A stretch of DNA of 64,000 nt. Source: Eledone cirrhosa. Lineage: Eukaryota. Location: contig OZ024740.1 of the NCBI GenBank assembly GCA_964016885.1, forward strand, positions 240,870,001 through 240,934,000. The letters are read 5' to 3'. This document shows, piece by piece, positions 2,290 through 61,769 of the stretch (positions are counted from its first letter, which is position 1; every line of letters begins with the position of its first letter). Below the pieces are notes generated by a model. It ran no database searches. It saw only the letters and a program-made list of their open reading frames with translations, and had not been told where the DNA came from. A program made the position numbers and the translations under genes.

Positions 2290-2372
2290 ACACGCGTACA
2301 AATCCAAAGAGATCTGTGTCGCCAAGAAATTATTGACTGAAATGGAAGCGCCTATGGTTCATCAGCGCGTGT
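2290..2372 (-). ncRNA. Type I hammerhead ribozyme-like motif (GAAA>GACA variant)
   Basis: Minus strand: acacgcg CTGATGA accatagg..ttcttggc GACA cagatc tctttg gatttg TA cgcgtgt. Stem I is 7 bp, stem III is 7 bp, and the cleavage triplet is GUA. Confidence 0.75.
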
Positions 2373-2559
2373 AAGGCAAATACATTCCAGACAACTCTAA
2401 GGAAATATAAGATAACCGCGGCAGAGATGTGACAGCATGCATAGGACAGTGAACCAGTGGTATCTGAGGGACGAGCTGCTAGAAATGGCAGCCGAAGACC
2501 ACTCAAAGAGATGTGCTCAACCAAACAGAGAGAGAGGAAAGACTGTTATAAGGAGCGAA

Positions 2560-2679
2560 ATATCAAGATAAATTAACGGAGCCATAGACTCTCGCCGTTC
2601 CCTGTAAATTATGTGCTGTAAATTATGAGCACATAATTGACAGGGAATAACAAGAGTCTATGGCTCCGTTAATTTATCT

Positions 2680-2685
<6 letters not shown>
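2560..2685. repeat. ~125-bp fold-back palindrome abutting (TA)n
   Basis: atatcaagataaattaacggagccatagactct is matched by agagtctatggctccgttaatttatcttgatat, with inner arms ttccctgt/acagggaa and aattatgtgct/agcacataatt. Confidence 0.9.
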
Positions 2686-2734
<49 letters not shown>

Positions 2735-2739
<5 letters not shown>

Positions 2740-3272
2740 CGGGTCACTCTTGAGTGCTACTGGTAACATGTAACCCAGTACAACCTGTCGCATGGTCGGG
2801 TCGTCGGCGGCTAATCCGGCAACCCCACCAAGTTTACTTGGTCAGGAGGGTGATTTTGGACAAAACCTGACAAAGGGCGGAAGAACTCATAAGAGTCAAC
2901 GGCCATCCAAAAGTGTGTAAATATGTATATACACATGTACCGCCCGGTTAAACCACTGGGAATGAAGGACCCATAGCCTTTGTCAGGGCATTCTTCTAGG
3001 AGAAGGCAACTCAGGAAACTGGGATAGCTCCGATATAAAACCTGCGGCTCAGTAGTTACCGATGTTGTTGATCTTTTCTTCTTTTCAGGTTATAGCTACT
3101 GCCGCCCAGAGAGTGGGATTGGCTCAGTGCACAGTCTTTCTTCACTTTAAAAAATATCTTCAAGCACAGGCATTGCACGATAGAATTAATTGATAATTAT
3201 TAATAATGGTATATCGTGCAAAGGCCATACTCGATAACGAGGGGGCAGCCTTTATGTATGTATGTATGTATG
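2735..3272 (+). mobile_element. Short non-autonomous RTE-derived element (5' UTR joined to 3' end, TATG tail)
   Basis: RTE 5'UTR-like motifs (gggtcg..ggcaacccc hairpin; ctaggagaaggcaactc). The end motif ggccatactcga.aacgag..ggcagcc is shared with the homologous copy at 59308-59920. Confidence 0.6.
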
Positions 3273-3275
3273 TCC

Positions 3276-3950
3276 TGGCGAAATAACGTGCGTGATACGC
3301 AACAAAGTGTGTAGAACTAGTTCCGGACTAAAAAAACACATGGTGGTACATAAAGATTGTGACCCACAGGGTGGCACCACCGGTCCTGTGGAATGCACAA
3401 CTTTCTTCTGCTCCCTGTGTCGTAAACCATGCAGATTTACAGCTGGCCTACAAAGTCATCTTCGATGGACGCAGATGGGATGATAATGAAGAATCAATAA
3501 GAGACGGCAATCGACTGCTGATACATGGGAAAGCGTAGCTGCTGATCGTAATAAATGGAGAATGACTGTACATAAGGGGAAAGTTGCTTTTGAAGCATCT
3601 CGAAACGCATACGAGAAAGTAAAAAGGGATGTCGGGAAAGGCATTGCTGCTGCATTTCCAGACATGCAGCGTCTGTGCAAGGCTCTGCCTCAGCAAAGCT
3701 GGACTCGAAAGTCATCTCTGCAATAATAAAGTGAGACCAGTGGTTGACTACCAGGTTGCTGTCGGAGATGCTACTCATCATACCTGTCAAGCATGTGGAA
3801 AAGAGTGTAGATCAGCAGGAGGGCTCAAACGACACGAAATCCAACCACAGCCGTCTATTACCAGTGAATGTTTTGGTTGCCAACTCTATGCAAGACATTT
3901 TGGATCTTTGGCTCATAAGCCACATTCGATCGCAGCACCGGAACGTGTAT
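3276..3950 (+). mobile_element. RTE-clade ORF2 C-terminal fragment with multiple C2H2 zinc fingers
   Basis: Repeated C..C...C.S.AGL..H motifs (3262..3483 and 3629..3970 frames) and WESVAADRNKWR-type sequence at ~3525-3560. Confidence 0.65.
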
Positions 3951-4237
3951 TTTGGATAACGGATCTATAAACTCTCTATCAATAGTTCGTATTTACCCTC
4001 CTTCTGTTCTATTTCCTTACCGCATTGACATCGAGTGGGCAGCTGACTTCTACAACAGAATTTATTTTTAATGTGTGGTCTCAAACAACAATATCAGACC
4101 CGTTGTGTTTTAATTTAGTGGCGGTTTTTATTTTTAGGCTCCACCAGTTTTACTTTGAGCCATCTGTATCGTATCGACATATTCCCCCTACATGTTTTTA
4201 ATCAAGAATAGTGGCTATCCTAACAATATTGTTACTT

Positions 4238-4424
4238 GTGGATTAGAAGTATCGGTAGAGCGTCAGACACCATGCTTTGAAGCATAGAGTTATGTCCCTT
4301 TACCTTCTGAGTTCAAATCCCACCGAGGTTAACTTTGTCTTTCAATCCTTACGAGGTCGATAAAATAAAGCACCAGTAATGCACTGGAGTAATTGCTGGC
4401 CTTGTACCCAATGTAGAGACAATT
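4238..4424 (+). mobile_element. tRNA-derived SINE with Nin-like core
   Basis: B-box-like gagttcaaatccc and core ctttcaatccttacgaggtcgataaaataaagcaccag; many copies in the window. Confidence 0.8.
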
Positions 4425-4429
4425 AATAC

Positions 4430-4625
4430 TTTCATGCTCATAAATCTAGGCAACCTTTCTCTTGTGTTGACCTTTCTCTTGTGTTGAAAATGTTCTTTCC
4501 AGATCTCGTGTGATGTTAATACGGATTTTAGGCCACGGCCACCTTCCTTGCCTGGGAAATATAGACTATCTATGTCAACATAGCAAAATGCTCTCAAATG
4601 TTTTTCATAAGCATCTCGTATATTC
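4430..4625 (-). mobile_element. R4/Dong-clade LINE fragment
   Basis: DIDSLYFPGKEGGRGL matches the D.DRLY.PR..GGRGL motif. Confidence 0.55.
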
Positions 4626-4636
4626 AATATACATAC

Positions 4637-4707
<71 letters not shown>

Positions 4708-4850
4708 AGTAAAATGTAAAAGATATATGTATATATGTATATATTATATATATAGAGAGAACCATATATCCAGAGAAAACATAGTATATTGTATATATAC
4801 TAAATACATATTTCAGAGAGGAATATGTACTCAAGATGGAATTAATAGAG

Positions 4851-4972
4851 ACCTTATAGAGCTATTTCGTATTCCGTAGACTGTAATTTAAAATCAATCT
4901 ATGTAACCGGTTATTGATCACAAACTATCGATTATAATTGAACCACATGAGACTCAGAATACTCATCAAGGT
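4851..4972 (-). ncRNA. Type I hammerhead-like motif with long loop 2 (one-nt core defect)
   Basis: Minus strand: acct TGATGA gtattctg..cggaatac GAAA tagctcta TA aggt. Stem II is 8 bp and stem III is short; C3 is missing or substituted. Confidence 0.65.
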
Positions 4973-5271
4973 TATAGTCTACAGCATTCTAAGAAAAATA
5001 TAGAAGCAAAAATAGTATATAGAACAATATACTTGTAGATATTCAGAGCAGAATTTGATTCAACTCACCATACTAAAAGCCGCATGGAAAGCGCATAGTG
5101 TTACGACGTCAAATCCAAGGGAAATATCAATACAATATACTTATGGTTCTTTCTCTTTCAATATATATGCATATATCTTTTACATTTGACTTATCATTGC
5201 TCTGGATAATGTCTATAGAGCTTGTTTCTTGAGAAGCACAAAATTCTAACATATATTTGATATGTTACATT

Positions 5272-5354
<83 letters not shown>

Positions 5355-16874: not shown

Positions 16875-18665
16875 TTTACGCCTGCTTTTCCCTGCTTGCA
16901 AGGGTGGGACGGGTCTTATTCAGCACAGCATCTCTCCACTTGTCACGGTCCTTCGTCATCTCCACCGTGAGCTTCAGTGATCTGAGGTCTGTTCTCACCA
17001 CCTCTGCCCATGTTTTTCGTGGTCTACCTCTACCACGTCTTCCTTCAACTGGCATTTCCTGGCACTTCTTCACCCATCGGTCATCCTGCATGTGCATCAC
17101 ATGTCCATACCACCTCCGTCTCCTCTCCCGTACACTACATTCTATCCCTCTCAGACACAGTTTCTCTCTCAACACATTCATGCTGGGTCGTTCACGCACA
17201 TTGACACTGCACATCCAACGGAGCATGCTTCCCTCATTTTTCTCCAGCCATCGCATATCCTCTGCAATTGCTGCCCATGTCTCACTACCATGCAACATCG
17301 CGCTCCTCATACAGGCATCATATAACCGACCTTTCGTACGCAAGGAGAAACCCTTCTTCGTCAGCAGAGGAAGCAGCTTCCTAAACTTCTTCCAACCCGT
17401 CCTTATTCTAGATACTATGGCCTCGGAACACCCCTCTCCCATGCTAATCTGATCTCCGAGGTACCGGAAGCTATCCACCACTTCCATAGCACCCGCCTAC
17501 ATTTGAAAAATGTGTCTATCAATGCGACTTCTACTGTCTAATTTCCCTGTACATCTACTGCATACATATTTCTCCCTACCTGTTAGTTTGCCTGCTATCC
17601 CGCTACATCTCTTGTGTACCCAGGATCTGCATTGTGTGCATTTTATAGAATTTATGCCAGTTCCTTTTCTGCATATCGAACATGGCCATTTCCCTGACGG
17701 AATCAGAGTTTTGTCCTCTTTTCTACTCATCAACACTTTTGTCTTAGTTAGGTTCACTCTCAGTCCTTTTGCTTGCAACTGCTGTTTCCATAGCCAGAAT
17801 TTATTCTCTAGCTCCTCTACTGATTCTGCTATAAGAACCAGATCATCAACATAGAGAAGTTCCCATGGACAGCCAGTCTTAAACTCCTCTGTTATGGCTT
17901 GGAGGACTATAATGAACAAGAGCGGGCTGAGGACCGAACCTTGATGTACTCCTACTTGTATCTGGAATTCCTCACTAAACTCCATTCCTACCCGGACTTT
18001 ACTGACTGTACCTCTGTACAAAGTTTGCACTGTCCTCACAAGCCATTCCTCAACACCTAGTTTCCTTAGGGACCACCAGATGACAGATCGGGGTACCCTA
18101 TCAAAGGCCTTCTCTATGTCAACAAAGGCTAAGTATAGTGGCTTATTTTTCTCTAAGAACCTCTCTTGCAATTGTCTCACCAAGAAGAGGGCATCTGTTG
18201 CACTCTTCCCAGGCACAAAACCAAACTGCATCTCATCTAGTTTGACCCTTTCTCTAATTAGTTGTGCTAATATCCTTTCTGCCACTTTCATAACCTGATC
18301 CATCAGTTTTATACCCCTATAATTGCCCCTCTCCGGAGCATCTCCTTTACCTTTGTAGCAATTTATGAGAATACTGCTGCACCAGTCTTTGGGTATGACA
18401 CCACCATATATAGCCTGATTGATGATGCGTACAACCAGTTTAGTGCCTACGTCCCCTGATGCCTTCAGCATCTCAGCAACTATTCCTGATGGTCCAGCAG
18501 CCTTACCATTTTTCATTTCCTTAATCGCCTCTTGGACCCTATATTCGTCAATCTCAATAGCTGGTCCTTCTGTTGGATCTACTGAGGGTAATTTCTCTCT
18601 CTCCCATTCTCCACATTCATCAGTCTCTCATAATGACATTTCCAGGCCTCCTTTTTCTGATCATT

Positions 18666-18669: not shown

Positions 18670-18717
<48 letters not shown>

Positions 18718-18770
18718 CGCGCCTCATTTAGTCTTCTAAGATACTTAGAAGTGAAAGGTTTACTAATTCG

Positions 18771-18850
18771 ACATCCACTGACAAGCAATAGAATTGGTAA
18801 TTCCCTTTCACTTAATTGCGAAACAGCATTGCCAAAAGCTGTTTGGATGT
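18771..18850 (+). ncRNA. Type I hammerhead ribozyme-like motif (G8A)
   Basis: acatcca CTGACAA gcaat..attgc GAAA cagc attgccaaaa gctg TT tggatgt. Stems are 7, 5 and 5 bp and all perfect. Confidence 0.8.
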
Positions 18851-18929
18851 ACAATTGATAGTTATCACAATTTCGGTTTGTATTTTTTCTTAATTTATTC
18901 TTTTAAATTGAGTCTGGCAAACCGCATTG

Positions 18930-19875
18930 TTCATAGTTTAAAAAATCAAACATAGGGTCAGGGGTCACCCATGGAGAAAGCCCACAAAAAGCCGTGGTCA
19001 GCCTGACTGCTAAGGTAAGTGCCCCTTCACAGTTGTCCTCTTCTAATCTATATGTGTATACTCAGGACAGGCCCATTCACTTGGACCATGCTTGCCACTC
19101 TCATCCACCTTTCAACAAACTGGTTGGTAGGTAGCATTTCCCTCTCTACCCTGAGTTTCCTCTTCAAGTGAAACCTGAAAAAATTAATCAGGGCTTCGCC
19201 AAAGAGGAAAGTGCTTGTCTTCAACCCTTTTAAACATGTCCACCACACAACCTCTTTTGTCATGTCTACCAGGCAGATTAAAAACTGCCTGTCCTTCCCT
19301 TCTAAAGGAAGACAACAAGATGATCTTCTCAATGAACTTAGTTGTTAGTCAGATCTATCCCACATGTGATAGCAGGTGTTCAATATAAACCACAAGTCAA
19401 CAATACTTAGACCTCGGACAGGCCCAGCTGATGGCACTGCCATGTCTGTAGAGTTTATCTTGAACTGGCAAAGCCTCAGTAGCACTGCCAGGTCAGGGAT
19501 TTCTAGAAGTTATCCAGGGGCCCTGAACTGAAAGTCCTCTGAAAAAGAGTGGCTAGTTGATTTTCATCAATGTTTAGTCTCCCTAAGAATATTCTCATTT
19601 TTTTTCTGCCACTAACTCTCTATAGAACATCAACGTGGAGTTTCCACCAATTGTTCTGCCCCATTTTCTGAGGACCGAGAGCACTTGAAGACATTCTAGT
19701 CTCGAAGCACTCCCTCTTGGTTTTCACTTGACCTAGGACTGCAGCTCCATTAAGGTGACCAGCTAGGGAAAAAACATCTCTAGAGAATGGCGATCACATC
19801 TGTTCACTGCCAAGGAAAAGTTGGAGATGCCTTAGCCTCAGCGCATCATCACCCACAACATACCCAATCCTCCAT
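18930..19875 (-). mobile_element. Tx1/L1-clade ORF2 C-terminal fragment
   Basis: KEVVWW..LK....F..G..LINFF.FHLKRKLRVERE.L....F.ERW. Confidence 0.6.
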
Positions 19876-20429: not shown

Positions 20430-20728
20430 GTTATACCAATTAAGTTGATAATAGCACTAACAAAGACACCGTACAGGACCAGTGAAAGACAGGCAGGATC
20501 GTGCAAGTACTCACGTAAATAAGTGGGAGGAAAGAGTAGAGGGGTCGGGTTATAGGGAGGGAGGGTGTAATGAGAATGGGAGTACTAAATTGGGTGGGGT
20601 ATCCAGGCTGCAAAGCCTGTTGTTGAGGTGTTTGGGGCATATAGTCCATTATCCTCTGGGGTAATTTGATGGTTTGGAGTAGAGGTAGAATTTCTGGATC
20701 CAGTGCCTGCATTTGGTCACCAATTTTG

Positions 20729-20730
<2 letters not shown>
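20430..20730 (-). mobile_element. 3' tip of a Naiad-type PLE ORF plus 3' region
   Basis: Minus frame SKLVTKCRHWIQKFYL resembles the L.SKCRH..KF.L terminus; starts at (TA)n. Confidence 0.45.
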
Positions 20731-20782
<52 letters not shown>

Positions 20783-20869
20783 CATGCATACATATATAAG
20801 GAATATGGTAAAACTAAGTATACCACTAACATTTTTGCTGGTGGTGATCGCAATAAGGGTATAATCAAT

Positions 20870-21310
20870 AATAATAATCGACTTTTCAGGATCAATTGTA
20901 ATTGTAGAATTCCTAATAATTGCCAAATTTGGCGGTAAATGTCTTAAAACTAATGTTCTTTATAGATATGAGGTTTCTACTAGTGATAATTGCTTTAATT
21001 ATATAGGTGCCATTGCCAATAAATTCAAAACTGGATTCTATGCTCATACTCATTCCTTTAAAAATAAGAAGCTGAAAAATATAACTACTCTGGAAAAATT
21101 AATCTGTTCCCTTAAAGAAGATAAGGTTAAATATAATTTTAAATGGTCTCGAATTAATACTGCAAGGCCATATGGGGAAAATAAATCCAAATGTAATCTT
21201 TCTTTAACTGAGGTGTTTGGAAATTAACCTCCAATTTGAACTTATTAAATGCTTAAAATGAGGTAATTCCTTCTTGTCAACATAAAACACTAATTTTTAC
21301 TATAAAATTA
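20870..21310 (+). mobile_element. Naiad/Chlamys-type PLE GIY-YIG endonuclease fragment
   Basis: CNCR.PNNC..GKCL..NVLY...V......YIG....FK..FY.H.HSF..K.....T.L...I.SLK......KW......PY......CNL.LTE, read across one frameshift. Confidence 0.75.
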
Positions 21311-22860: not shown

Positions 22861-25232
22861 AGAAGAGCACTGGGAGTTCCTAAAAAATAACTTAATAGAG
22901 GCGACGGATGAGATCTGTGGCTGGAGTAAGAACTCAGGCAGGAGGAGAGTGACTTGGTGGTAGAACAATAAGGTAGATGAGGCAGTTAAGTCCAAGAGAC
23001 AGGCATTGGAAGAATGGGGGAAGCAGGGTTCATTACATAGAGACCAGGAGGGAAGCTAGGTGACAAGTATACTTAGCTAGGAGGGAAGCAGAGGATAGAA
23101 AATTTAAGCATGTTTTGCAACGTGAGGACCAGAAACAGGAGGTGTTCAAGATTGCGAGGCAGTGTGTCAGAGAGAATTGTGATGTCATTGGAGAGAAGTG
23201 TATCTGGAATGATAAAGGTGAGCTTGCCCTCACAAGTGCTGAGAAGAAGATGCATGGAAGAGCCATTATGATAGATTACTAAATGAGGAGAATGCATGGG
23301 AAGAAGAGACCCTACCCCAAGTAGACCCTATAGAGGGGCCGGCAGTACAAGTCAGCAGCAGCGTAGTAAGTAAGGCAATCAAAGATATGAAGACGGGGAA
23401 GGCAACCAGTCCATCGGGTATAGCTGCCGAGATGCTGAAGGCATCTGGGTCGGTAGGTCACACTATAACCACACGTATTGTTAACCAGGTAATACTAGGT
23501 GTCATACCAAAGGATTGATGCAGTAGCATCATTGTCAACTGCTACAAAGGTAAAGGTGATGCACTAGATAGAGGAAACTATAGAAGTATAAAAGCTGATG
23601 GACCAGGTCATGAAAGTAACAGAAAGAATTATAGCACAGTTGATTAGGGACCGGGTGAAACTAGATGATATGCAATTTGGGTTTGTGCCAGGAAGAGGCA
23701 CCACTGATGCCCTCTTCCTTGTGAGGCAGTTACAGGAAAAGTACCTAGCTAAACGTAAGCTACTCTACCTGGCATTCATCGATCTCGAGAAAGCCTTTGA
23801 CAGAGTTCCACGTGCTATAATCTGGTGGGCTCTTAGAAAACTAGGAGTAGATGAATGGCTTGTGAAAGCTGTACAAGCCATGTATAGAGGAGCAGTCAGC
23901 AAAGTTAGGATTAGCAATGAGTATAACGAGGAATTTAGCGTACAGGTTGATGTCTACCAGGGCTCTGTTCTTAGCCCTCTCCTGTTCATCATAGTCCTGC
24001 AGGCAATAACGGAGGAGTTTAAGACCGGATGCCCATGGGAACTCCTGTAAGCAGACGACCTCGCACTTATAGCTGAATCTATGGTAGAACTAGAGAAGAA
24101 ATTCCAAACTTGGAAGCAGGGACTAGAAAGAAAGGGTCACAAAGTCAACCTGACAAAGACCAAGGTCCTTGTAAGTAGACTAGAAAACAGAACCCAGATC
24201 CCCTCTGGGAAATGGCTTTGCAAACAATGGGTACACAAGAGATGTAGCGGGATCTCAGGAACCTTAACTAAAAATGTAGGCTTCACATGTAGCAGCTGTG
24301 CTGGGACAGCAAGCAGCAAACAGCCACAGGAAACAAGTACCACCAATCTCTGGGAGGGCTCTGTACAAACAGTAGACAGCTACTGCTACCTAGGTGACCG
24401 AATTAGCAGCGGCGGTGGGTGTTCGGAAAGTACAATAACTCAGGTAAGAACGGGATGGAAGAAGTTCAGGGAGCTACTGCCACTGCTAGCTGCAAAACGC
24501 GTTTCCCTCAAAATGAAAGGCAGACTGTATGATGCATGTATACGAACAGCAATGTTACATGATTGTGAGACCTGGGCGCTGTCTGTGGAAGACTTGCATA
24601 GATTAGAAAGAAATGAAACCTGCATGCTCCGATGGATGTGTAATAGTAATATACATGAACGGCAAAGCATAAATGAATTGAGAGAGAGACTGAGCATAAG
24701 AGGAATCAAATGCTGTGTGCAGGAGAGGCGGTTGCATTGGTATAGACATGTGAGGCGTATGAAGGATGACAGCTGCATAAAAAGGTGCAGAGCACTAGAA
24801 GTCGATGGAAACTGCGGAGTCGGGAGACCCAAGAAGACCTGGGATGAGGTGATAAAAGCCGACCTTACCCAATTACATCTCTCAAAGGCGATGACACAGT
24901 ACCGTGACCTCTGGCGTCACGCAGTAATAGAGAAGACCCGACCTCCCATGGGTACAAGCCAAAGCTGAAGCATATAGACAAAAGTGCAAAGTGGTCGTGG
25001 AGGTGCCACGCCAAAAAAGGACCCAGCCCACACTGTAAAGTGGATGTGTAGGCGCCACGGAAAAAAAGCACTCAGCACTCACAGTAAATGAGGTTGGTGT
25101 TAGGAAGGGCATCCAGCTGTAGAAATCAAACCAGAATCAGTTCCTGTATGAGCAAGACAAGGTCAGCCGACCAGACACTGCCCACAACAGGACAACCCGT
25201 CTAACCCATGGTAGCATGGAAGAACGGACGTT
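22861..25232 (+). mobile_element. RTE-clade LINE, 5'-truncated and degenerate
   Basis: RT motifs in the 23598 and 24081 frames; YADD mutated to stop-ADD; 3' UTR near-identical to the 55378 copy. Confidence 0.95.
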
Positions 25233-27455: not shown

Positions 27456-27578
27456 TTATATTTCTCTTTTTATATTTATCACCTATTTATTTTCAAAATA
27501 AGTTTTTATAGTAATGTTCTAGAGTGTTTGACATACTCTGTAGTTAGAAAAACAGATTTTCCATGAATTATGACGTCG

Positions 27579-27621
27579 TTTTTTGACAAGTCCCAAGAAG
27601 GGGACGAAACGTTCGTAAATC
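27579..27621 (+). ncRNA. Degenerate minimal type I hammerhead motif
   Basis: ttt TTGACAA gtccc aagaag gggac GAAA cgttcg TA aat; two core substitutions. Confidence 0.55.
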
Positions 27622-27779
27622 AACATTTAATGTAAAAACGTATTTGGTATTTACTTTAATGAATAATTTGCTTCAAGCGTAATTATTATTTTTAACACAA
27701 CAGCATTTTGTACACATGCTTGTTTGGAAAATTCTTTCAAAGAAGTATGAAACAGCCTTTTGTACTGCTTATTATAATA

Positions 27780-28566
27780 AACTAGCTGAATTACCCGGCG
27801 TTCTTAATTAACGATGTTCTTATTCAGATTAGTAAACAATAAATATGAAGAAATGTTTTTTTTTTCATAATTATTTCAAAATATCTATATTTTATAAAAG
27901 AAAGATAAAAATTGTAATGATAATAGAATTTAGAAATGAAAATTTGTCAATCCTGAAGCACCTTAGGGTAAACAATATTCATTGTGTAATTTTTTGTCGG
28001 TGTCCAAATGAATAAATTATTGCTACACACTCACACATACATATTCATATACAAAATGAGACGTTGTTGTGTTGTTTTCTATTGTTTTAATCCAAATAAA
28101 AGTAAAAATTATCACATATACACTCTCACATGCATATACTAAGACAGACACACACAGACATACATTCACGCACACCTGTGTCATCACATATGTATCTGTA
28201 TGTTTAATTGTCTGTGTGTGAAGATAATGTGTATTCAACTTACTAAGGCTATATGTATGTGTAGATGTGTGTGTGTTTAATTCTCTGAGGCCTAATGTAC
28301 ATAACGAACTTGCAAACACACACACTCACATACAAAATGTGACGTCATCATTGTGGTGCTGGTGGTTTACTATAGTTGACTATAGAAAGGTTATTTTAGA
28401 TAAAATATATTGTTTTAATCCAAATGAAAATAAAAATTACATGTTGACACTCCCGGGGTCAACTACTTTTACCTTGTAAAATTTGATTTGATTTGGTCCA
28501 GCTGTTTGAGAATGCATAAGAACAGACAGACAGACAGAGACAAAGAATTTTATGTATATAGAGATT
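27780..28566 (+). mobile_element. DINE-1/HINE-like non-autonomous Helitron/Helentron element
   Basis: Starts actagc..acccggcgtt; internal CA-rich duplication; ends (caga)n..ttttatgtatatagagat. Confidence 0.55.
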
Positions 28567-36489: not shown

Positions 36490-37099
36490 TTAAATGAATT
36501 ACATGAGAAGTTCAGAATATTTTTTTTAAATGCTACTCTAGTACACCTGAGATTGTGAGCTTCTCAATCTAACAGATCTAATTGCACTTAATTTACAATC
36601 ATTGTTTTTATGTTGTGTGTATTTTGTGTTTACTCCCTTCTACATAATGCCATTTCTGTTATTGTTGGACCTTGCGACATCATCAGAAATTATGAATAAA
36701 CAAAGGGACATAATACTGTCATTATGCAATACTTTCTTATATTCTTTTTAATGTATTCAATTGAAATATAACTTTCACTTTCTGTGTTGATTCTTAAGTT
36801 TCACTGTGAAACTTACAACTAGTATTTTCAGGCTTTTTGATTCATATTTGAATTTTCCAAATTTCAAATATATGCAATGCTAACAATGATAATAGGATTA
36901 TTAGAATGTAAAAACGTTTCCAATGGTCTTCTTAAAAGCACAAGAACTAAAGTCATAACTTTAGAAAATGTTCATATGAATATATAATTCCTGACTCCAT
37001 TAATAACAATACTAGGACCCTGACTCTACTAGTAAACCCCTTATATATGATTTAGATTACTTGAATGAATAGTTTCTTCACACTTATCTGTCAAATATA

Positions 37100-40886: not shown

Positions 40887-41051
40887 CAAACATTTTCATA
40901 TGATGCAACCATACCTCCTACTTCCTGGATATTTGACATTTCATAACGACTGAACAGAGCTGAAACCATCTTAGGCAGGTCTCTTTACATCCCTCACACA
41001 ACAAAATCATGTTAGCCAAATCAAAAACAACCCACCCTATATACTGGATGT

Positions 41052-41624
41052 ATGTCACCAACATGACCACTTTACAGTGTGGGCTGGGCACTTTTTGTCA
41101 TGTCACCAACATGACCACTTTACAGTGTGGGTTGGGCACTTTTTGTCATGTCACCAACATGACCACTTTACAGTGTGGGTTGGGCACTTTTTGTCATGTC
41201 ACCAACATGACCACTTTACAGTGTGGGTTGGGCACTTTTTGTCATGTCACCAACATGACCACTTTACAGTGTGGGTTGGGCACTTTTTGTCATGTCACCA
41301 ACATGACCACTTTACAGTGTGGGTTGGGCACTTTTTGTCATGTCACCAACATGACCACTTTACAGTGTGGGTTGGGCACTTTTTGTCATGTCACCAACAT
41401 GACCACTTTACAGTGTGGGTTGGGCACTTTTTGTCATGTCACCAACATGACCACTTTACAGTGTGGGTTGGGCACTTTTTGTCATGTCACCAACATGACC
41501 ACTTTACAGTGTGGGTTGGGCACTTTTTGTCATGTCACCAACATGACCACTTTACAGTGTGGGTTGGGCACTTTTTGTCATGTCACCAACATAACCACTT
41601 TACAGTGTGGGTTGGGCACTTTTT
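41052..41624. repeat. 48-bp minisatellite, ~12 copies, derived from the RTE 3' UTR
   Basis: tgtcaccaacatgaccactttacagtgtgggttgggcactttttgtca; the reverse complement matches aaaaagcacccagcccacactgtaaagtgg in RTE tails. Confidence 0.95.
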
Positions 41625-41754
41625 CTCCAAATACCTATACAACCACTTTATAGTAAGGATTGGGAACTTGGGTGGGGGAGATGCATGGTGATTGGGGAGG
41701 TAATCTAGAATTGAGGGGATTACAATGTGGAAGGTGTATGGGAGGGAAAGTGGC

Positions 41755-54694: not shown

Positions 54695-55073
54695 TCATCA
54701 TCATTTTACATCCGCTTTTCCCTGCTTGCAAGGGTGGGATGGGAACTGATTCTGGCTTGATTTCTACAGGTGGATGCCCTTCCTAACACCAACCTTATTT
54801 ACAGTGAGTGGCGGGTGCTTTTTTTCCGTGGTGCCTACACGTCCACTTTACAGTGTGGGCTGGGTGCTTTTTTGCCATGGCACCTCCACGACCACTTTGC
54901 AGTGGAATGATAGGGACACCAGTCATCATCTAATTTCTACAGCTGAGTAAACTGAAACGATGTGAAATAAAGTGTCTTGCTCAAGGAAACAACACATCAC
55001 CCGGTGTGAGAATTGAACTCACAGCCTTTCGATTGCAAGGCCAATGCTATAACTACTAAGCCATGGGCCTCCA
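54695..55073 (-). mobile_element. tRNA/CORE-like SINE with RTE tail
   Basis: Reverse complement of the 11581 family. Confidence 0.85.
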
Positions 55074-55084: not shown

Positions 55085-55211
55085 GTAAGACCCCGCCGGC
55101 TGAGCTCAAGCCGTCGGGGTCTTACTGGTTCCTATTACCTACTCTACTAACCTAAGTATTGAGTACTTTGGTGTATTATGGTCCACCTGGTTCCTTACCA
55201 CATTTCCTTCG

Positions 55212-55213
<2 letters not shown>
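55085..55213 (-). mobile_element. ~130-bp (TA)n-embedded element with terminal hairpin
   Basis: gtaagacccc..ggggtcttac hairpin at 55085-55125; related to 5375-5473. Confidence 0.65.
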
Positions 55214-55248
<35 letters not shown>

Positions 55249-55326
55249 CATACATACGTACATACATACATACGTACGTACATACATACATACATACATA
55301 CATGCATACATACATACATACATACA

Positions 55327-55359
<33 letters not shown>

Positions 55360-55377
55360 GTATATATATATATATAT

Positions 55378-57539
55378 TGCGAGGCAGTGTGTCAGAGATA
55401 GTTGTGATGTCATTGGAGAGAAGTGTATCCGGAATGATAAAGGTGAGCTTGCCCTCACAAGTGCTGAGAAGAAAGATGCATGGAAGAGTCATTATGATAG
55501 ATTACTAAATGAGGAGAATGCATGGGAAGAAGAGACCCTACCCCAAGTAGACCCTATAGAGGGACCAGCAGTACAAGTCAGCGACAGCGTAGTAAGTAAG
55601 GCAATCAAAGATATGAAGATGGGGAAGGCAACCGGTCCATCGGGTATAGCTGCCGAGATGCTGAAGGCATCTGGGTCTGTAGGTCACACTATAACCACAC
55701 GTATCGTTAACCAGGTAATACTAGAAGGGGCCATACCAAAAGATTGGTGCAGTAGCATCATTGTCAACTGCTACAAAGGTAAAGGCGATGCACTAGATAG
55801 AGGAAACTATAGAGGTATTAAGTTGATGGACCAGGTCATGAAAGTAACAGAAAGAGTTATAGCACAGCTGATTAGGGACCGGGTGAAAATAGACGAGATG
55901 CAATTTGGGTTTGTACCAGGAAGAGGCACCACTGATGCCCTCTTCCTTGTGAGGCAATTACAGGAAAAGTACCTAGCTAAAAGTAAGCCACTCTATTTGG
56001 CATTTGTCGACCTTGAGAAAGCCTTTGACAGAGTTCCACGTGCTGTAATCTGGTGGGCTCTTAGAAAACTAGGAGTAGATGAATGGCTTGTGAAAGCGGT
56101 ACAAGCCATGTATAGGGGAGCAGTCAGCAAAGTTAGGATTAGCAATGAGTATAGCGAGGAATTTAGCGTACAGGTTGGGGTCCACCAGGGCTCTGTTCTT
56201 AGCCCTCTCCTGTTCATCATAGTCCTGCAGGCAATAACGGAGGAGTTTAAGATCGGATGCCCATGGGAACTCCTGTATGCTGATGACCTCGCACTCATAG
56301 CTGAATCTATGATAGAACTAGAGAATAAATTCCAAACCTGGAAGCAGGGACTAGAAAGAAAGGGTCTCAAAGTCAACATGACAAAGACTAAGGTCCTTGT
56401 AAGTAGACGAGAAAACAGAACTCAGATCCCCTCAGGGAAATGGCCTTGCTCAGTATGTAGGAAAGGTGTAGGTAGGAACTCCATTCTCTGCTCCAAATGC
56501 AAACAATGGGTACACAAGAGATGTAGCGGGATCTCAGGAAGCTTAATTAAGAATGTAGGATTCGCATGCAGCAGCTGTGCTGAGACAGCAAACAGCAAAC
56601 AGCCACAGGAAACAAGTACCACCAATCTCTGGGAGGGCCCTGTAGAAACAGTAGACAGCTTCTGCTACCTAGGTGACCGAATTAGCAACAGAGGTGGGTG
56701 TTCAGAAAGTGCAATAACTAGGGTAAGAACGGGATGGAAGAAGTTTAGGGAACTACTACCACTGCTAGCTGCAAAAGGCTTCTCCCTCAGAATGAAAGGC
56801 AGACTGTATGATGAGTGTATCCGAACAGCGATGTTGCATGGTAGTGAGACCTGGGCGCTGAAGGTGGAAGACTTACGTAGATTAGAGAGAAACGAAGCCT
56901 GCATGCTCCGATGGATGTGTAACAGTAATATACGTGAACGACAAAGCATAAATGAATTGAGAGAGAGACTGAGCATAAGAGGAATCAAATGCTGTGTGCA
57001 GGAGAGGCGGTTGCGCTGGTATGGACATGTGATGCGTATGAAGGATGACAGCTGCATAAAAAGGTGCAGAACACTAGAAGTTGATGGAAACCGCGGAGTG
57101 GGGAGACCCAAGATGACCTGGGATGAGGTGATAAAAGCCGACCTTACCCAATTACACCTCTCAAAGACAATGACACACGACTGTGACTTCTGGCGTCACG
57201 CAGTAATACAGAGTACCCGACCTCCCATGGGTACAATCTGAAGCATATAGACAATATGCCGCCACACCCCCCACCGCAAGGTGGTCGTGGAGGTGCCACA
57301 GCAAAAAAGCACCCAGCCCACACTGTAAAGTGGACGTGTAGGCGCCACGAAAAAGCACCCAGCACTCACTGTAAATGAGGTTGGTGTTAGGAAGGGCATC
57401 CAGCTGTAGAAATCAAGCCAAATCAGTTTCTGTATGAGCAAGGCATGGTCAGCCGACCAGACACTGCCCACAACATGACAACCCGTCTAACCCATGCTAG
57501 CGTGGAAGAACGGACGTAAAACGGTGATGATGATGATGA

Positions 57540-57541: not shown

Positions 57542-57587
<46 letters not shown>

Positions 57588-57625
57588 AAGAACACAAGAG
57601 CGTCTACAACATCAAAAGATTTTTA

Positions 57626-57677
57626 TTGGCTAACAATGTTTCTTCCTTACGTGTAACCGTAGGATTCATCAGAGCTA
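57626..57677 (-). ncRNA. Minimal type I hammerhead ribozyme motif (intact core)
   Basis: Minus strand: tagct CTGATGA atcctacg gttaca cgtaaggaa GAAA cattg TT agcca. Confidence 0.7.
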
Positions 57678-58339
57678 TAAAAGGGGTTTGATTGGTGTTA
57701 TGGACTCTACCAACCAAACACCCAAGAACAAAGAGTAAAGAGCAAACGTAGGGGACGATAAGTCTAATTTTGGTGCGGGAGGGTGGGGTGTTGGTCCTTG
57801 TTTACTAGCTGCGGTCATATTCATTCCCGGGGGTCGGGTGGTTAGCTGAACCATAGATGGGGTGGCGTGGATAGTATGGTGCAGAGGGTGCGCAGAGGCT
57901 ACACAAACACAAAGGGCGTAGAATACATATATACATATAGCGGAGGAGAAGGTACATGAGGTAATTAGAAATGGAAAAAGAGTAATAATAATAATCTATA
58001 ATTAATAGTGTATAATAAGGCATGGGGAAGATTACACTATAATAAGGTATAAAGGTAAGAATAAGGTAAAATATAAAGGAGGATAAAAGTGGAAATAATA
58101 ATAAAGATAAAAAATATATAGAGAATATATAAGGAAATATAAGCGAATATTTGGAGGGGAAAACACAACGTAAAAAAAACGATTTTTTTCAAACAATAAT
58201 AAAAAATAATAAAAATATAATAATTATGGGGGGAGAAAACAGGATAGAGAAATATGATCAAGTGTGATTCGTTGAGAGAATATAGGATGATAACAGTTGT
58301 GTCTGGTTTATACATCTTAATAATAAATAATAAACAATA

Positions 58340-58700
58340 TGTGTATCAGAGTTGCAGAACCTTCAATTCACTTACGGGTTCAAGCCACGTGGCATGGTCC
58401 ATTGTTTATCTGTGCGGTCATGTGCGTTTGTTTTTGACACCACAGCAGATGCACAAGTTTGTAAATTCCAATGCAGATAGAAGTCAATTTTTGCTCACCC
58501 GGACATTGACCGAGGATCCAATATTCCTAGTTCAATATGTGTTTGGTGTTATTTTGTTCGCACAAATCAATCAATTGGTTCAATATATGGAGTATGGTTT
58601 CCTGGTCTTCGTGACAGTGTCAGTGGTTGTATATTTGGAAGTCACAAGGATCACAGTACTCCGGTTTGGTGTGATACCCAAACGTTGAACTTTGGTGTCG
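58340..58700 (-). mobile_element. Possible L1/Tx1-like ORF2 C-terminal (zinc-knuckle) remnant
   Basis: HCHEDQETILHIL...YWILG...IYKLVHLLW, with stops. Confidence 0.3.
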
Positions 58701-58805
58701 ATAGGACATCAACGATATTATATATATATATATATATCATCATCAACGTTTAACGTCCGTGTTCCACGCTTGCATGGGTTTGGACGGGAGTAGTCCCACT
58801 TGAGG

Positions 58806-58867: not shown

Positions 58868-58869
<2 letters not shown>

Positions 58870-58964: not shown

Positions 58965-58981
58965 TATATATATATATATTA

Positions 58982-59260: not shown

Positions 59261-59272
59261 CATATATATGTT

Positions 59273-59307
<35 letters not shown>

Positions 59308-59310
<3 letters not shown>

Positions 59311-59917
59311 GTCAGGTCACCAGTTGGTGCTACTGGTAACATGTATCCCAGTACAACCTGTCCCATGGTCGGGTCGTTGGCGACTAAACTGGCAACCCCA
59401 CCAAGGTTTCTTGGTGAGGAGGGTGACTTTGGACATCCTGCAGGACTAAAAACAAAACCTGTCAAAGGGCAAAGGAACTCTTAAGAGTCAATGGCCATCC
59501 AAAATCACCGGGAGAGATGACCCCTTAGCCTTTGTCAAGGCAGAATTCTAGGAGAAGGAAAACTCTGATATAACACCTGCAACCCTGATGGTATCCAATG
59601 ATGTTGACTTGTTCTTCTTTTTGGTAAATATCATCTTGGTTAAGAGAGTGGGACTGGCTTTGTGCAGTGCCTTTGCTCACTATAAAAGCTTCACGGCACA
59701 GGCATTGCTTTGTATCTGGAGATCTCTCTGAACTTGTCGTCACATGGTACCATGGGCCCAGCACTATGTGACAATAATTGTCACAAGTGTAGTGTTTGTA
59801 CCAGAGTTTTCAAGTCACTGGCTGAGACTAAAAAGTCACACTCGTTCAGCGCATCAGTAGGGGTTCTCCTACATGGATATAAAGTAGTGGCCGTACTCGA
59901 AAACGAGTTGGCAGCCA

Positions 59918-59920
<3 letters not shown>
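59308..59920 (+). mobile_element. Short non-autonomous RTE-derived element retaining one zinc-finger remnant
   Basis: Homologous to 2735-3272; CSVCTRVFKSLA...H. Confidence 0.6.
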
Positions 59921-59953
<33 letters not shown>

Positions 59954-59983
59954 ATGAGAAGAATATACATATATATATACATA

Positions 59984-60741
59984 TCATCATCATCATCATC
60001 ATCATCGTTTAACGTCCATGTTCCACGCTTGCATGGGTTTGGACGGGAGTTTTTGAGTGGTTGTCTTGCTCGCATAGGACTGTCTGGCGGGTTTTCTACA
60101 GCTGGTTGCCCTTCCTAACACCAACCACATTTACAGTGTGGGACTGGGAGGTTTTTACCGTGTTACCTACACGGCCACATTACAGCGTGGACTGTTTGTT
60201 TTTTTGTCGTGACACCTACACGATCTCATTTGTTTCGGACTGGATGTTGTGGTACCAACATAACTTTACATTGAAAGGGGTGGTGGGACGGGGGTGTATT
60301 TTGTTAGAGATGCCTACTGACTGTAGTAGGTTTACTTTGTATTTAGGCAAGGCGGGTCTTCTCTATTACTGAGTGCCGCCAAAGATCTCGGTCCAGTGAC
60401 ATTGTCTTGGAGAGGTGTAAGCGTGTGAGGTCGGAGTTTAGCAAGTCATCCCAGGTTTTTCTGGGTCTGCCTACTCCGTGGCTACCGTCTATCTTTATTG
60501 CCCTGCACTTTATTATACAGCTGTCGTCTTTCATGCGCATCACGTGACCATACCAACATAGTCTTCTCTCGAGTAAACAACATCTGATCCCTCTTATTTC
60601 TAATTTTTCCCTTAGTTCGTTTATGCTTTGCCGTTCGCGTATATTACTATTACACATCCAGCGGAGCATGCAAGCTTCGTTCCTCTCTAGTCTGCGTATA
60701 TCCTCTGCACACAATGCCCAGGTCTCACTGCCATGCAACAT
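59984..60741 (-). mobile_element. RTE LINE, 3' portion of the element split by an insertion
   Basis: [10 protein letters not shown]...GRPRKTW; 3' UTR and (GAT)n. Confidence 0.92.
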
Positions 60742-60749
60742 ACATATAC

Positions 60750-60780
<31 letters not shown>

Positions 60781-60799
60781 CATACATACATATATATAT

Positions 60800-61074
60800 A
60801 ATCAGGAGGGAATCAGTTTGAAACTGGTTAGACCATTACTCAACAGACTACTCAATACTTGGACTAGTAAGTGCGGTTATATTATAATGACTCAGGTTTT
60901 CAAGCTGTGTTCATATCCATTGACTTTGCAATTTGGAATAGTAGTTTTCAAGGTTTGTTCATATTATAATGACTCAGGACTCCAACAGCTGAGCTCTTGC
61001 CATTTCAACAACTAGTTCACAGTATGGAACTAGCTGTTGACATGGGAAGAGCTCAGTTGTCAGATCCCGACTCT

Positions 61075-61078
<4 letters not shown>
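60800..61078 (-). mobile_element. ~280-bp (TA)n-embedded element, copy 2
   Basis: Reverse complement of 58982-59260. Confidence 0.8.
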
Positions 61079-61115
<37 letters not shown>

Positions 61116-61662
61116 ACATATATCATTATATTTGGGGAGGGATTGTTATAATATTGCCAGAAATAATAATAAAACAGACTCACTGTTTGGTTTAACAAAA
61201 AACAGTGTCTTTCAGCTTGGCATAAGCTAGTGCCATGAAAATATAATAGTAAATATAGATTAATGTAAATGTTAAAGGGTTAACTCTCTCAGAACAGTAA
61301 CTTCTTTCTCCTTTCACATTTAAACAATATGATAAAAGTTTTTGAAAAAACATAAAACAAAAAAAAAGAAGAATGATATATGACTTTAACTTATACATAT
61401 AAGGATGTCTTTTTACCAAATCACACACACAAAAGAAAACAAACAATGAATAACTACTCATGAAAGAAGGAATATATATATAGATAAGTGCTTACCAGAG
61501 AATAGACTCAATGGTATCCTTGGATTCACATAACATAAGTATCTAAGTGGGGGGAATATGGTATATAGGTCCAGAAGAGATCACAGAGTATATTTTATAA
61601 GTAAGTATAGCACCAAGAAAAATATAGACTTTGGCAAGAGGAGATAGTAATAATTGATTTGT

Positions 61663-61769
61663 TTTAACATATGTTTCTGTGTCGATTATAATAGTCTACA
61701 TATGCTGACTACAATATATATTGTTCAATCATATGAAATACTTAATTATTTTTCACACATCTTCAGAAA
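61663..61769 (-). ncRNA. Type I hammerhead ribozyme motif with intact core, palindromic stem III and long loop 2
   Basis: Minus strand: ttt CTGAAGA tgtgt..(~73 nt)..acaca GAAA catatg TT aaa. Confidence 0.75.

What the first reader, a model, noticed from the sequence alone, without database searches (positions are those of the whole stretch)
2290..61769. Six type I hammerhead-like motifs in 64 kb, mostly in short non-coding modules near (TA)n
Seen at 2290-2372(-), 4851-4972(-), 18771-18850(+), 27579-27621(+), 57626-57677(-) and 61663-61769(-). Each has a CUGANGA-like box, a GAAA-like box, a UH site and pairing stems with unrelated sequences. Known: PLE pLTRs and metazoan retrozymes carry type I hammerheads. 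Inference: this genome has a diverse set of PLE-mobilised ribozyme modules, and PLE ORF remnants lie at 1000-2060 and 20430-21310.
Basis: partly seen in the sequence, partly recalled or inferred. Interest (0 to 1): 0.75.

Follow-up and report, generated by a model that had tools for sequence, protein, structure and literature searches.

The report
Penelope-type hammerhead repeats in TA microsatellites
All six motifs are copies of six different dispersed repeat families whose other copies carry a type I hammerhead ribozyme core, a kind of element already described for Penelope-like retrotransposons of animals; four of the six copies in this window are broken, and only two would likely still be able to cut.

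Summary
Counted on the window alone they are no commoner than chance: my descriptor gave 1 strict site against 0.33 in shuffles, and 12 one-mismatch sites against 7.6 +/- 2.8.

Each motif nevertheless lies in a separate repeat family of the 3.0-Gb genome, with 456 to 2036 first-look candidates per family. In about 30 copies of each family, the majority base at the core positions is the canonical one.
- The three core point defects of window copies are private changes: A14 to C at 2318, C3 to U at 4969, G8 to A at 18783.
- The fourth family has U3...A8 in 27 of 30 copies. This variant is already published for Penelope-like elements. The window copy also lacks one strand of stem I.
- The copies at 57626-57677 and 61663-61769 keep the core.

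All families end at (TA)n. Partner copies lie head-to-head in 36 of 192 loci and tail-to-tail in 2.

Window 1-2061(-) is a 5'-truncated Penelope-like element, with its own hammerhead just left of the window. Window 20865-21227(+) encodes the endonuclease domain of a second lineage.

Cleavage and mobilisation are inferred, not shown. This is a new set of members of a known kind. Other windows of this genome gave similar notes in this scan.

The parts
2290..2372 (-). Family 1 hammerhead copy. C3 is at 2365. A14 is mutated to C at 2318. The predicted cut is after A17 at 2297. Stem I is ACACGCG/CGCGUGU.
   Evidence: In 35 other copies A14 is A in 32, and the other core positions are canonical in 33-35.
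2081..2682 (-). Family 1 non-coding element of about 0.6 kb. It has a 110-nt hairpin near its 5' end and a (TC)n tail, and it lies between (TA)n 2683-2735 and 2062-2079.
   Evidence: Coverage by 29 family loci; sequence.
4851..4972 (-). Family 2 hammerhead copy. C3 is mutated to U at 4969. The predicted cut is after A17 at 4855. Helix II carries an insert of about 85 nt.
   Evidence: C3 is C in 27 of 29 other copies.
4708..5283 (-). Family 2 element of about 0.6 kb, between (TA)n 5284-5353 and 4638-4707.
18771..18850 (+). Family 3 hammerhead copy. G8 is mutated to A at 18783. Position 17 is U at 18843, where the family majority has C. All three helices are intact.
   Evidence: G8 is G in 31 of 33 other copies and C17 is C in 31 of 33. 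The unconstrained fold of an intact copy gives the three-way junction.
18713..18945 (+). Family 3 element. It starts at (TA)n 18671-18712 and lacks the last roughly 80 nt that family copies have before their 3' (TA)n.
27579..27621 (+). Family 4 hammerhead copy with the U3...A8 core (U3 at 27583, A8 at 27588). The predicted cut is after A17 at 27617. The 5' strand of stem I is absent, because homology with the family starts at 27581.
27581..27790 (+). Family 4 element remnant.
57626..57677 (-). Family 5 hammerhead, identical to the family at all 16 positions tabulated. C3 is at 57672. The predicted cut is after U17 at 57632.
   Evidence: All 33 other copies match at every tabulated position except N7, where 1 of 33 differs.
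57584..58715 (-). Family 5 full-length non-coding element of 1.13 kb, between (TA)n 58719-58737 and 57543-57583.
   Evidence: 11 of 29 loci start at the same 5' end and the rest are 5'-truncated. The longest open frame is 127 codons.
61663..61769 (-). Family 6 hammerhead copy with an intact core. C3 is at 61766. The predicted cut is after U17 at 61666. Stem I is weakened by a G to A change.
61600..62000 (-). Family 6 element, 5'-truncated.
1..2061 (-). 5'-truncated Penelope-like element. It holds the end of the RT (RYIDD) through GIY-YIG at 2050-1030, then a C-rich repeat 3' UTR. It runs on left of the window to its own hammerhead and (TA)n.
20865..21227 (+). Remnant of the C-terminal GIY-YIG-type endonuclease domain of a second PLE lineage, just right of (TA)n 20731-20776.

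Best explanation
The six motifs are single copies of six unrelated families of short non-coding retroelements that carry a type I hammerhead ribozyme of the Penelope-like-element kind near their 3' end and sit in (TA)n microsatellites; they were likely copied there by Penelope-like reverse transcriptase/endonuclease.

Shown:
- Each motif belongs to a repeat family.
- The family majority carries the hammerhead core.
- Each family's three helices have their own sequence.
- The 3' ends abut (TA)n, and 5' truncation is seen.
- Partner copies lie head-to-head.
- A Penelope-like element in and beside the window has its own hammerhead.

Inferred:
- The RNA would cut itself after position 17. It would probably do so as a dimer, because helix III is only 2 bp or palindromic in four of the six families.
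- This would trim read-through or tandem transcripts to unit length.
- The unit RNA, linear or circularised by a host RNA ligase, would then be reverse-transcribed at a nicked (TA)n by a PLE protein.

In this window, the copies at 2290, 4851 and 18771 each carry one change in an essential core base, and the copy at 27579 lacks half of stem I. These four are predicted dead. The copies at 57626 (a family whose copies are 99-100% alike over 117 nt) and 61663 keep the core.
For: 1. Family membership. DNA searches of the own genome gave 2036, 1453, 1790, 456, 591 and 1011 first-look candidates.

2. Core restored in the families.
- Family 1: A14 is A in 32 of 35 copies (window C).
- Family 2: C3 is C in 27 of 29 (window U).
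- Family 3: G8 is G in 31 of 33 (window A).
- Families 5 and 6: the invariant core positions are intact in 33 of 33 and in 28-29 of 29 copies.

3. The same core sits in helices of unrelated sequence in all families. Unconstrained folding of intact copies returns the three-way junction for families 3 and 6 and most of it for family 5.

4. Subfamily changes keep pairs. In family 1 stem I changes A-U to G-C in 5 copies. In family 3 helix III changes C-G to U-A in 4 copies. In family 2 position 1.1 is A in 20 copies and G in 9, and by eye it changes together with 2.1.

5. Published traits of PLE hammerheads are present (PMC4209133, passages read): type I topology, a 1-2 bp helix III with palindromic sequence, an extra base after A9, many families per genome, and the U3-A8 variant.

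6. PLE-style insertion. The 3' ends abut (TA)n. Family 5 has a fixed 5' end in 11 of 29 loci and truncation in the rest. Neighbour copies are head-to-head in 36 of 192 loci and tail-to-tail in 2. This matches the inverted 5'-truncated copies and the (TA)n bias described in PMC8557442 (passages read).

7. A full PLE (L199) has (TA)n, an RT + GIY-YIG ORF, a hammerhead, a tail and (TA)n. The window's remnant at 1-2061 is a copy of it, with its hammerhead 456-632 nt left of the window.

8. The genome has Rfam-positive Hammerhead_1 copies: 18 listed at 34.4-37.8 bits, and none in 14 control genomes. Their tail is homologous to that of family 5.
Against: - Rfam models do not recognise families 1, 2, 3, 5 and 6, nor the PLE's own motif, even in a 2.4-kb search at E<=1.
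- Motif counts in the window match shuffles.
- Within-family covariation is weak. Cells changed on both sides were reached by 45 of 500 shuffles in family 3 and by 17 of 500 in family 1.
- Core positions are barely more conserved than other columns.
- Families 1, 5 and 6 lack the G10.1-C11.1 pair, which the 2014 paper calls highly conserved.
- No ORF was found inside any of the six families' elements.
- None of the six shares sequence with the 3' ends of the two PLE lineages I examined. Their autonomous partners are therefore unknown.
- Published PLE hammerheads cut poorly in vitro.
Confidence: 0.85

Rival explanations
1. The six motifs are chance look-alikes. Short boxes such as CUGANGA and GAAA, plus a few pairs, turn up at this density in any AT-rich 64 kb.
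For: Descriptor counts are close to shuffles. No Rfam hit reaches gathering score in the window. Four of the six copies deviate from the consensus.
Against: 6 of 6 motifs lie in repeat families whose majority restores exactly the canonical base at each deviating position. None of the 10 other relaxed sites showed a hammerhead family in the fetched loci: 7 had no hit, 2 had one hit each that I did not follow up, and 1 lies antisense in family 4.
Confidence: 0.03
2. The modules are SINE-like parasites of the (TA)n-associated non-LTR (LINE) elements with RT + PHD finger that also fill this window, and not of Penelope-like elements. The hammerhead would be a passenger or a processing signal for that system.
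For: Three RT + PHD ORFs lie in the window (17497-18627-, 55163-57241+, 62176-62883-), the last continued by an RT ORF at 62771-63691(-). Two of them abut the same (TA)n tracts as families 3 and 5. No PLE ORF was linked by sequence to any of the six families.
Against: The module tails show no similarity to the LINE 3' end (by eye). The head-to-head excess of 36 against 2 is the published PLE insertion pattern and is not that of SINEs. Autonomous PLEs here end in a hammerhead of the same style at (TA)n.
Confidence: 0.07
3. The hammerhead fold is kept in these families as a structural handle, for instance for binding of the reverse transcriptase, and not for cutting. Self-cleavage would be dispensable.
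For: The youngest and most uniform family (family 5) has A.A where the G10.1-C11.1 pair should be. PLE hammerheads cut poorly in vitro (PMC4209133). Naiad PLEs thrive without a canonical hammerhead, and the authors suggest that hammerheads may simply parasitise PLEs (PMC8557442).
Against: The bases kept across unrelated families are the catalytic ones, while N7, the one free core base, varies (rank 1 of 62 columns in family 4 and 7 of 84 in family 3). The U3...A8 change keeps a known tertiary pair of the active site.
Confidence: 0.1

Closest known systems
Minimal type I hammerheads of Penelope-like elements (Cervera and de la Pena 2014, PMC4209133; passages read)
   Same: Type I topology. Short or palindromic helix III in four of the six families (2, 4, 5, 6). 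An extra base after A9. Many unrelated consensus families in one genome. Mostly single dispersed copies. The U3-A8 core variant. Presence at the 3' end of an RT + GIY-YIG element.
   Different: Families 1 and 3 have full helix III hairpins (7 and 5 bp). Helix II carries inserts of 25-85 nt in families 1, 2, 3 and 6. Families 1, 5 and 6 have an unpaired 1x1 position where G10.1-C11.1 is expected.
Metazoan non-LTR retrozymes (Cervera and de la Pena 2020, PMC7229834, passages read; Li et al. 2026 preprint 10.64898/2026.07.22.740005, abstract read)
   Same: Non-coding elements with a type I hammerhead, proposed to be non-autonomous partners of PLEs.
   Different: Retrozymes are tandem repeats of 170-400 nt that give circular RNAs. 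The window's modules are single copies of 0.2-1.1 kb with one hammerhead near the 3' end. RNA was not examined here.
Penelope-like elements with (TA)n insertion bias, such as Neptune and Naiad (Craig et al. 2021, PMC8557442; passages read)
   Same: (TA)n targets, inverted 5'-truncated partner copies, and a short tail beyond the hammerhead.
   Different: I did not place the two PLE lineages seen here in a named clade.
Rfam Hammerhead_1 (RF00163)
   Same: Same core and topology. One family of this genome scores above the gathering cut-off (37.8 bits).
   Different: None of the six window copies, and none of the tested intact relatives, reaches E<=1 with this model.

Membership tests
Hammerhead ribozyme, type I | C3 U4 G5 A6 N7 G8 A9 box | tested here: met
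   Met by the majority of families 1, 2, 3, 5 and 6. Among the window copies it is met at 2290, 57626 and 61663, and not at 4851 (U3), 18771 (A8) or 27579 (U3, A8). Family 4 has U3...A8 in 27 of 30 copies, which is a published variant.
Hammerhead ribozyme, type I | G12 A13 A14, then the A15.1-U16.1 pair, then H17 (any base but G) | tested here: met
   Met by the majority of all six families. The window copy at 2290 has C14.
Hammerhead ribozyme, type I | Three helices around the core, with helix I open | tested here: met
   About 93-95% of cells form pairs in families 3 and 1. The window copy at 27579 lacks the 5' strand of stem I.
Hammerhead ribozyme, type I | Score at or above the Rfam gathering cut-off | tested here: not met
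   Only another family of this genome passes.
Hammerhead ribozyme, type I | Self-cleavage after position 17 | not testable with these tools
   No run on record as RNA was listed for this sequence.
PLE-type minimal hammerhead (PMC4209133) | Helix III of 1-2 bp, or palindromic, implying action as a dimer | tested here: inconclusive
   Met in families 2 (AUAGCGCUAU), 4 (ACGUUCGU), 5 (ACAUUGU) and 6 (ACAUAUGU). Not met in families 1 (7 bp) and 3 (5 bp).
PLE-type minimal hammerhead (PMC4209133) | A base between A9 and 10.1, with G10.1-C11.1 kept | tested here: inconclusive
   Exactly so in the autonomous PLE's motif. Families 1, 5 and 6 have the extra base but also an unpaired base on the 3' side. 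Families 2, 3 and 4 have G10.1-C11.1 without the extra base.
PLE-type minimal hammerhead (PMC4209133) | Lies in the terminal repeat of an RT + GIY-YIG element | tested here: inconclusive
   Shown for the PLE of window 1-2061 and L199. Not shown for any of the six families.
Non-LTR retrozyme | Tandem repeats of 170-400 nt, each with a hammerhead | tested here: not met
   Each family occurs once in the window. Same-strand neighbour copies occur in 10 of 192 loci.
Penelope-like element (the two ORF remnants) | RT followed by a C-terminal GIY-YIG endonuclease | tested here: met
   Window 2050-1030(-): RYIDD, then GIY-YIG at 17.5 bits (below the 22.6 cut-off). Its relatives carry PF26215, PF00078 and PF01541. 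The full copy gives RVT_1 at 24 bits. Window 20865-21227(+) has the endonuclease domain only. Long relatives look like PLE ORFs.

The most novel reading that the evidence does not exclude
A currently spreading family (family 5; at least 1453 first-look candidates; 33 copies 99-100% alike over 117 nt) carries a hammerhead whose G10.1-C11.1 pair is replaced by A.A. Families 1 and 6 also have an unpaired position there. Either this is a working natural core variant not yet described, or these elements spread without cutting and keep the fold as a handle for the Penelope-type reverse transcriptase.
Probability: 0.2. Interest if true: 0.55.

Novelty: new member of a known kind. Interest (0 to 1): 0.3.

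Why it matters
The result shows that an eye-picked, imperfect ribozyme motif can be validated by its repeat family even when curated covariance models and motif statistics on the window say nothing.

It also gives a concrete set of families for testing how Penelope-type hammerheads work. The set includes one very young family and one with the U3-A8 core. Open questions they could address are whether cutting needs dimers, whether the 10.1-11.1 pair is needed, and which PLE lineage moves which module.

For annotation, it means that many (TA)n tracts of this genome are nests of PLE-type and LINE insertions. The biology itself is in print: PLE hammerheads in 2014, retrozymes in 2020 and 2026, and the (TA)n bias in 2021.

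Tried and rejected
- Rfam at gathering score and at E<=10 on the window. There were no usable hammerhead hits.
- Rfam on 13 whole loci. The 150 rows shown, all at 28.4 bits or more, held only (TA)n-driven microRNA, snoRNA and other look-alike hits and no hammerhead. 129 lower rows were not shown. The call gave nothing for this question.
- Rfam on 20 short stretches. Only the Rfam-positive family and the compact window copy of family 4 matched.
- The Hammerhead_3 (type III) reading of 27570-27615 is rejected. In full family copies the 'GUC' strand lies about 110 nt upstream, and the motif folds as type I.
- My first loose descriptor was too permissive and was replaced.
- RNA evidence: no RNA holder listed. 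Three runs of unknown kind are kept only as contigs, so I laid no reads.
- Link of family 5 to the PLE of L199: no sequence similarity.
- Link of any family to the abundant second PLE lineage: none within 1.5 kb of 30 copies.
- No canonical hammerhead box lies within about 570 nt downstream of the endonuclease remnant at 20865-21227.
- The search for homologous proteins with 'longer' for the second endonuclease found nothing. The exhaustive search did find relatives.
- I did not establish the species. Other agents' notes call it cephalopod or octopus-type, and I did not test that.
- A paper search for 'hammerhead ribozyme', 'Penelope', 'cephalopod' and 'octopus' (at least 3 of 4 terms) listed 12 of 18 papers. 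By the occurrence counts, only PMC8557442 holds 'hammerhead ribozyme'. By the passages I read of it, it does not describe cephalopod hammerhead families. Supplements were not opened.

Full report
**Observation**

- 2290-2372(-) has CUGAUGA, a 7-bp stem I and a 7-bp helix III, but GACA where GAAA should be.
- 4851-4972(-) has UUGAUGA.
- 18771-18850(+) has all three helices but CUGACAA.
- 27579-27621(+) has UUGACAA and no 5' strand for stem I.
- 57626-57677(-) and 61663-61769(-) keep CUGANGA and GAAA.

Rfam reports no hammerhead in the window at gathering score. At E<=10 it reports only Hammerhead_3 at 27570-27615, with 23.1 bits against a cut-off of 48.5.

I wrote a descriptor with these rules: exact core or one mismatch, stem I of at least 4 bp, helix II of at least 3 bp with a mismatch allowed at 10.1/11.1, and helix III of at least 2 bp.
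- Strict: 1 site, at 36686(-), which is not one of the six. This compares with 0.33 in 100 block-wise dinucleotide shuffles; 29 of 100 shuffles reached 1.
- One mismatch: 12 sites against 7.64 +/- 2.75; 7 of 100 shuffles reached 12.

The window also has 32 (TA)n tracts, so nearness to one means little by itself.

**Family test**

The own genome has 3.0 Gb in 1796 contigs, and the window is C1:240870001-240934000. It holds Rfam-positive type I hammerheads: 18 listed at 34.4-37.8 bits, with 74 of 415,510 first-look candidates scored and none in 14 control genomes. These lie in short elements flanked by (TA)n.

Searching the genome with each of the six motifs and its flanks showed that every one lies in a dispersed repeat family. 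First-look candidates numbered 1790, 456, 2036, 591, 1453 and 1011 for families 1 to 6. I aligned the copies found in the roughly 30 loci fetched for each family and tabulated the core positions.
- Family 1, 35 other copies: A14 is A in 32 (window C), and all other core positions are canonical in 33-35.
- Family 2, 29 copies: C3 is C in 27 (window U).
- Family 3, 33 copies: G8 is G in 31 (window A), and position 17 is C in 31 (window U).
- Family 5, 33 copies: identical to the window at every tabulated position except N7, where one copy differs.
- Family 6, 29 copies: the invariant core positions are intact in 28-29.
- Family 4, 30 copies: U at position 3 in 27 and A at position 8 in 27, with N7 split U15/A8/C6.

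So the three point defects in window copies are private mutations of old copies. The families' source sequences had the hammerhead core.

Two controls support this.
- I blasted the 10 other relaxed sites against the 0.65 Mb of fetched loci. Seven had no hit. Two had one hit each, which I did not follow up. One lies antisense inside family 4.

**Structure**

The helices of the six families have unrelated sequences but the same layout.
- Family 3 is the most canonical, as in L040:1545-1628. It has a 7-bp stem I, CUGA(C/A)GA, a 5-bp helix II with a 25-nt loop, GAAA, a 5-bp helix III and a GUC cut site. Its unconstrained minimum-energy fold is the three-way junction.
- Family 1 has a 7-bp stem I and a 7-bp helix III.
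- Families 2 and 6 carry inserts of about 80-85 nt in helix II. Their helix III sequences are palindromic (AUAGCGCUAU and ACAUAUGU).
- Family 5 has the minimal helix III ACAUUGU. Its tail is homologous to that of the Rfam-positive family.
- Family 4 first looked like a type III motif to Rfam. Full copies show that the upstream 'GUC' lies about 110 nt away. The consensus fold pairs UGAUU before the core with AAUCA after ACGUUCGU-A, which is a type I layout. The window copy lacks that 5' strand.

Within-family covariation is weak, as expected for copies that decay neutrally.
- Family 1 has 5 copies with A-U changed to G-C in stem I. 17 of 500 shuffles reached that count, and 5 of 500 reached the covariation score.
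- Family 3 has 4 copies with C-G changed to U-A in helix III, plus one more both-sided change in stem I. 45 of 500 shuffles reached that total.
- The ten invariant core positions show a minority fraction of 1-7%, against means of 6-14% for the other columns.
- N7 ranks 1 of 62 columns for variability in family 4, 7 of 84 in family 3, 27 of 131 in family 2 and 16 of 121 in family 6. It is invariant in family 1.

Rfam models do not match intact copies of families 1, 2, 3, 5 or 6, nor the full-length copies of family 4 that were tested, even in a 2.4-kb search. The call therefore rests on descriptor-type reasoning, as in the published work on these motifs.

**What the elements are**

Coverage by family copies gives the element limits in the window.
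- Family 1: about 2081-2682(-).
- Family 2: about 4708-5283(-).
- Family 3: 18713 to about 18945(+).
- Family 4: 27581 to about 27790(+).
- Family 5: 57584-58715(-).
- Family 6: about 61600-62000(-).

None of the elements has a long ORF with a Pfam match among those I scanned.

Family 5 has a fixed 5' end in 11 of 29 loci and 5' truncation in the others. It always ends about 60 nt after the cut site, directly at (TA)n. Families 3, 4 and 6 also end at (TA)n: (TA)5 or longer follows downstream in 9 of 21, 19 of 30 and 13 of 30 copies.

A second, inverted copy lies within 600 nt in a head-to-head arrangement in 36 of 192 family loci, and tail-to-tail in only 2. This asymmetry, the (TA)n bias and the short tail beyond the hammerhead are the insertion features described for Penelope-like elements (PMC8557442, passages read).

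**Penelope-like ORFs**

Window 2050-1030(-) reads RYIDD...GIY-YIG. Pfam gives only a weak GIY-YIG match (17.5 bits against a cut-off of 22.6). A protein search gives 10 relatives (best E 3.4e-52), all with PF26215, one also with RVT_1 and one with GIY-YIG.

A full copy elsewhere (L199) shows this order: (TA)n, 5' UTR, RT + GIY-YIG ORF, a C-rich repeat 3' UTR, a hammerhead with an extra A after A9 and a G10.1-C11.1 pair, a tail, and (TA)n. The window copy is 5'-truncated at (TA)n 2062-2079. It continues left of the window to the same hammerhead, 456-632 nt beyond the window start (93% identity over 178 nt).

This ORF is 39% identical (E 1e-25) to an ORF in L199. That ORF has 5691 relatives in the exhaustive library, where the domain sits at the C-terminus of proteins of about 700 residues. 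One such protein aligns with the RT of the first PLE (E 4e-4). It also clusters with proteins carrying HTH_animal, DUF8422, GIY-YIG and RVT_1. In this genome that endonuclease family has 65,577 first-look candidates and open frames up to 726 codons.

I found no sequence link between either PLE lineage and the six module families.

**Other retroelements**

The window also holds non-LTR elements.
- RT + PHD-finger ORFs lie at 17497-18627(-), 55163-57241(+) and 62176-62883(-). The last is continued by an RT ORF at 62771-63691(-).
- RT ORFs without a PHD match lie at 23592-24968(+).

Two of these abut the same (TA)n tracts as families 3 and 5. This keeps alive, at low odds, the rival that a LINE moves the modules.

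**Comparison with print**

Cervera and de la Pena 2014 (PMC4209133, passages read) describe the following for PLE hammerheads:
- type I motifs in PLE terminal repeats;
- mostly single dispersed copies;
- many consensus families per genome;
- a short palindromic helix III, implying dimers;
- a base between positions 9 and 10.1;
- a U3-A8 core variant, with about 1300 hits in Schistosoma mansoni;
- weak cleavage in vitro.

Cervera and de la Pena 2020 (PMC7229834, passages read) and a 2026 preprint (abstract read) tie non-coding hammerhead repeats to PLEs as likely mobilisers.

The finding is therefore a correct recognition of a known kind of element in a genome where these particular families are, as far as my one search shows, not described. 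What differs from print is detail: the long inserts in helix II, and an unpaired 1x1 position instead of G10.1-C11.1 in families 1, 5 and 6, including the very young family 5.

Earlier notes of this scan on other pieces of the same genome also report Penelope-type hammerhead repeats. I used them only as context.

**Mechanism and limits**

Shown: family membership, cores, helices, termini, insertion pattern, and PLE ORFs with their own hammerhead.

Inferred: self-cleavage after position 17 (window sites after 2297, 4855, 18843, 27617, 57632 and 61666 on the given strands), action as dimers, unit-length RNA as template, and copying by PLE proteins at (TA)n.

No run on record as RNA was available for this sequence, so cutting could not be checked.

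Noticed in passing
L199:7658-8212(-), and G000 generally: A second Penelope-like lineage is very abundant: 65,577 first-look candidates for its endonuclease domain, the top 150 matches 89-100% identical, and open frames up to 726 codons. Its 3' UTR is longer than 520 nt. I saw no canonical hammerhead box in the roughly 750 nt after the ORF in L199, and I did not scan the 520-nt 3' stretches printed for 9 other copies.
   Followed up: partly
window 17497-18627(-), 55163-57241(+), 62176-63691(-), 23592-24968(+): Four non-LTR reverse-transcriptase remnants, three of them with a PHD finger after the RT. The one ending near 57542 has a (GAT)n tail that abuts the same (TA)n tract as family 5. The same tail next to (TA)n is seen at another locus (L171).
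   Followed up: partly
window 2566-2677: A near-perfect hairpin of about 110 nt at the 5' end of the family 1 element. Rfam gives a weak MIR169_2 look-alike hit there (19.8 bits).
   Followed up: no
window 1-1000, and L199:4300-5700: The 3' UTR of the first PLE is a long C-rich stretch (G-rich on the + strand) built from degenerate CTAACA-containing repeats. GC skew is 0.67 over window 1-2000.
   Followed up: no
window 55006-55063(-) and 4260-4400: A partial tRNA match (34.3 bits, model positions 8-63), and a tRNA-like repeat that recurs beside (TA)n in other loci (for example L005 and L164). It is probably a tRNA-derived SINE.
   Followed up: no
L078, L077, L068, L064, L054, L075: In 6 of the 33 family 5 copies printed, the element's end is followed by TATATA and then one and the same sequence of about 110 nt starting CGGCTC. 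This suggests another small (TA)n-inserted element, or a fixed junction.
   Followed up: no
window 40964-41691(+): Two overlapping open frames give weak, low-complexity-looking Pfam hits (Dickkopf_N, GDT1, MlrA_C) with no stretch passing on its own. These are probably compositional.
   Followed up: no
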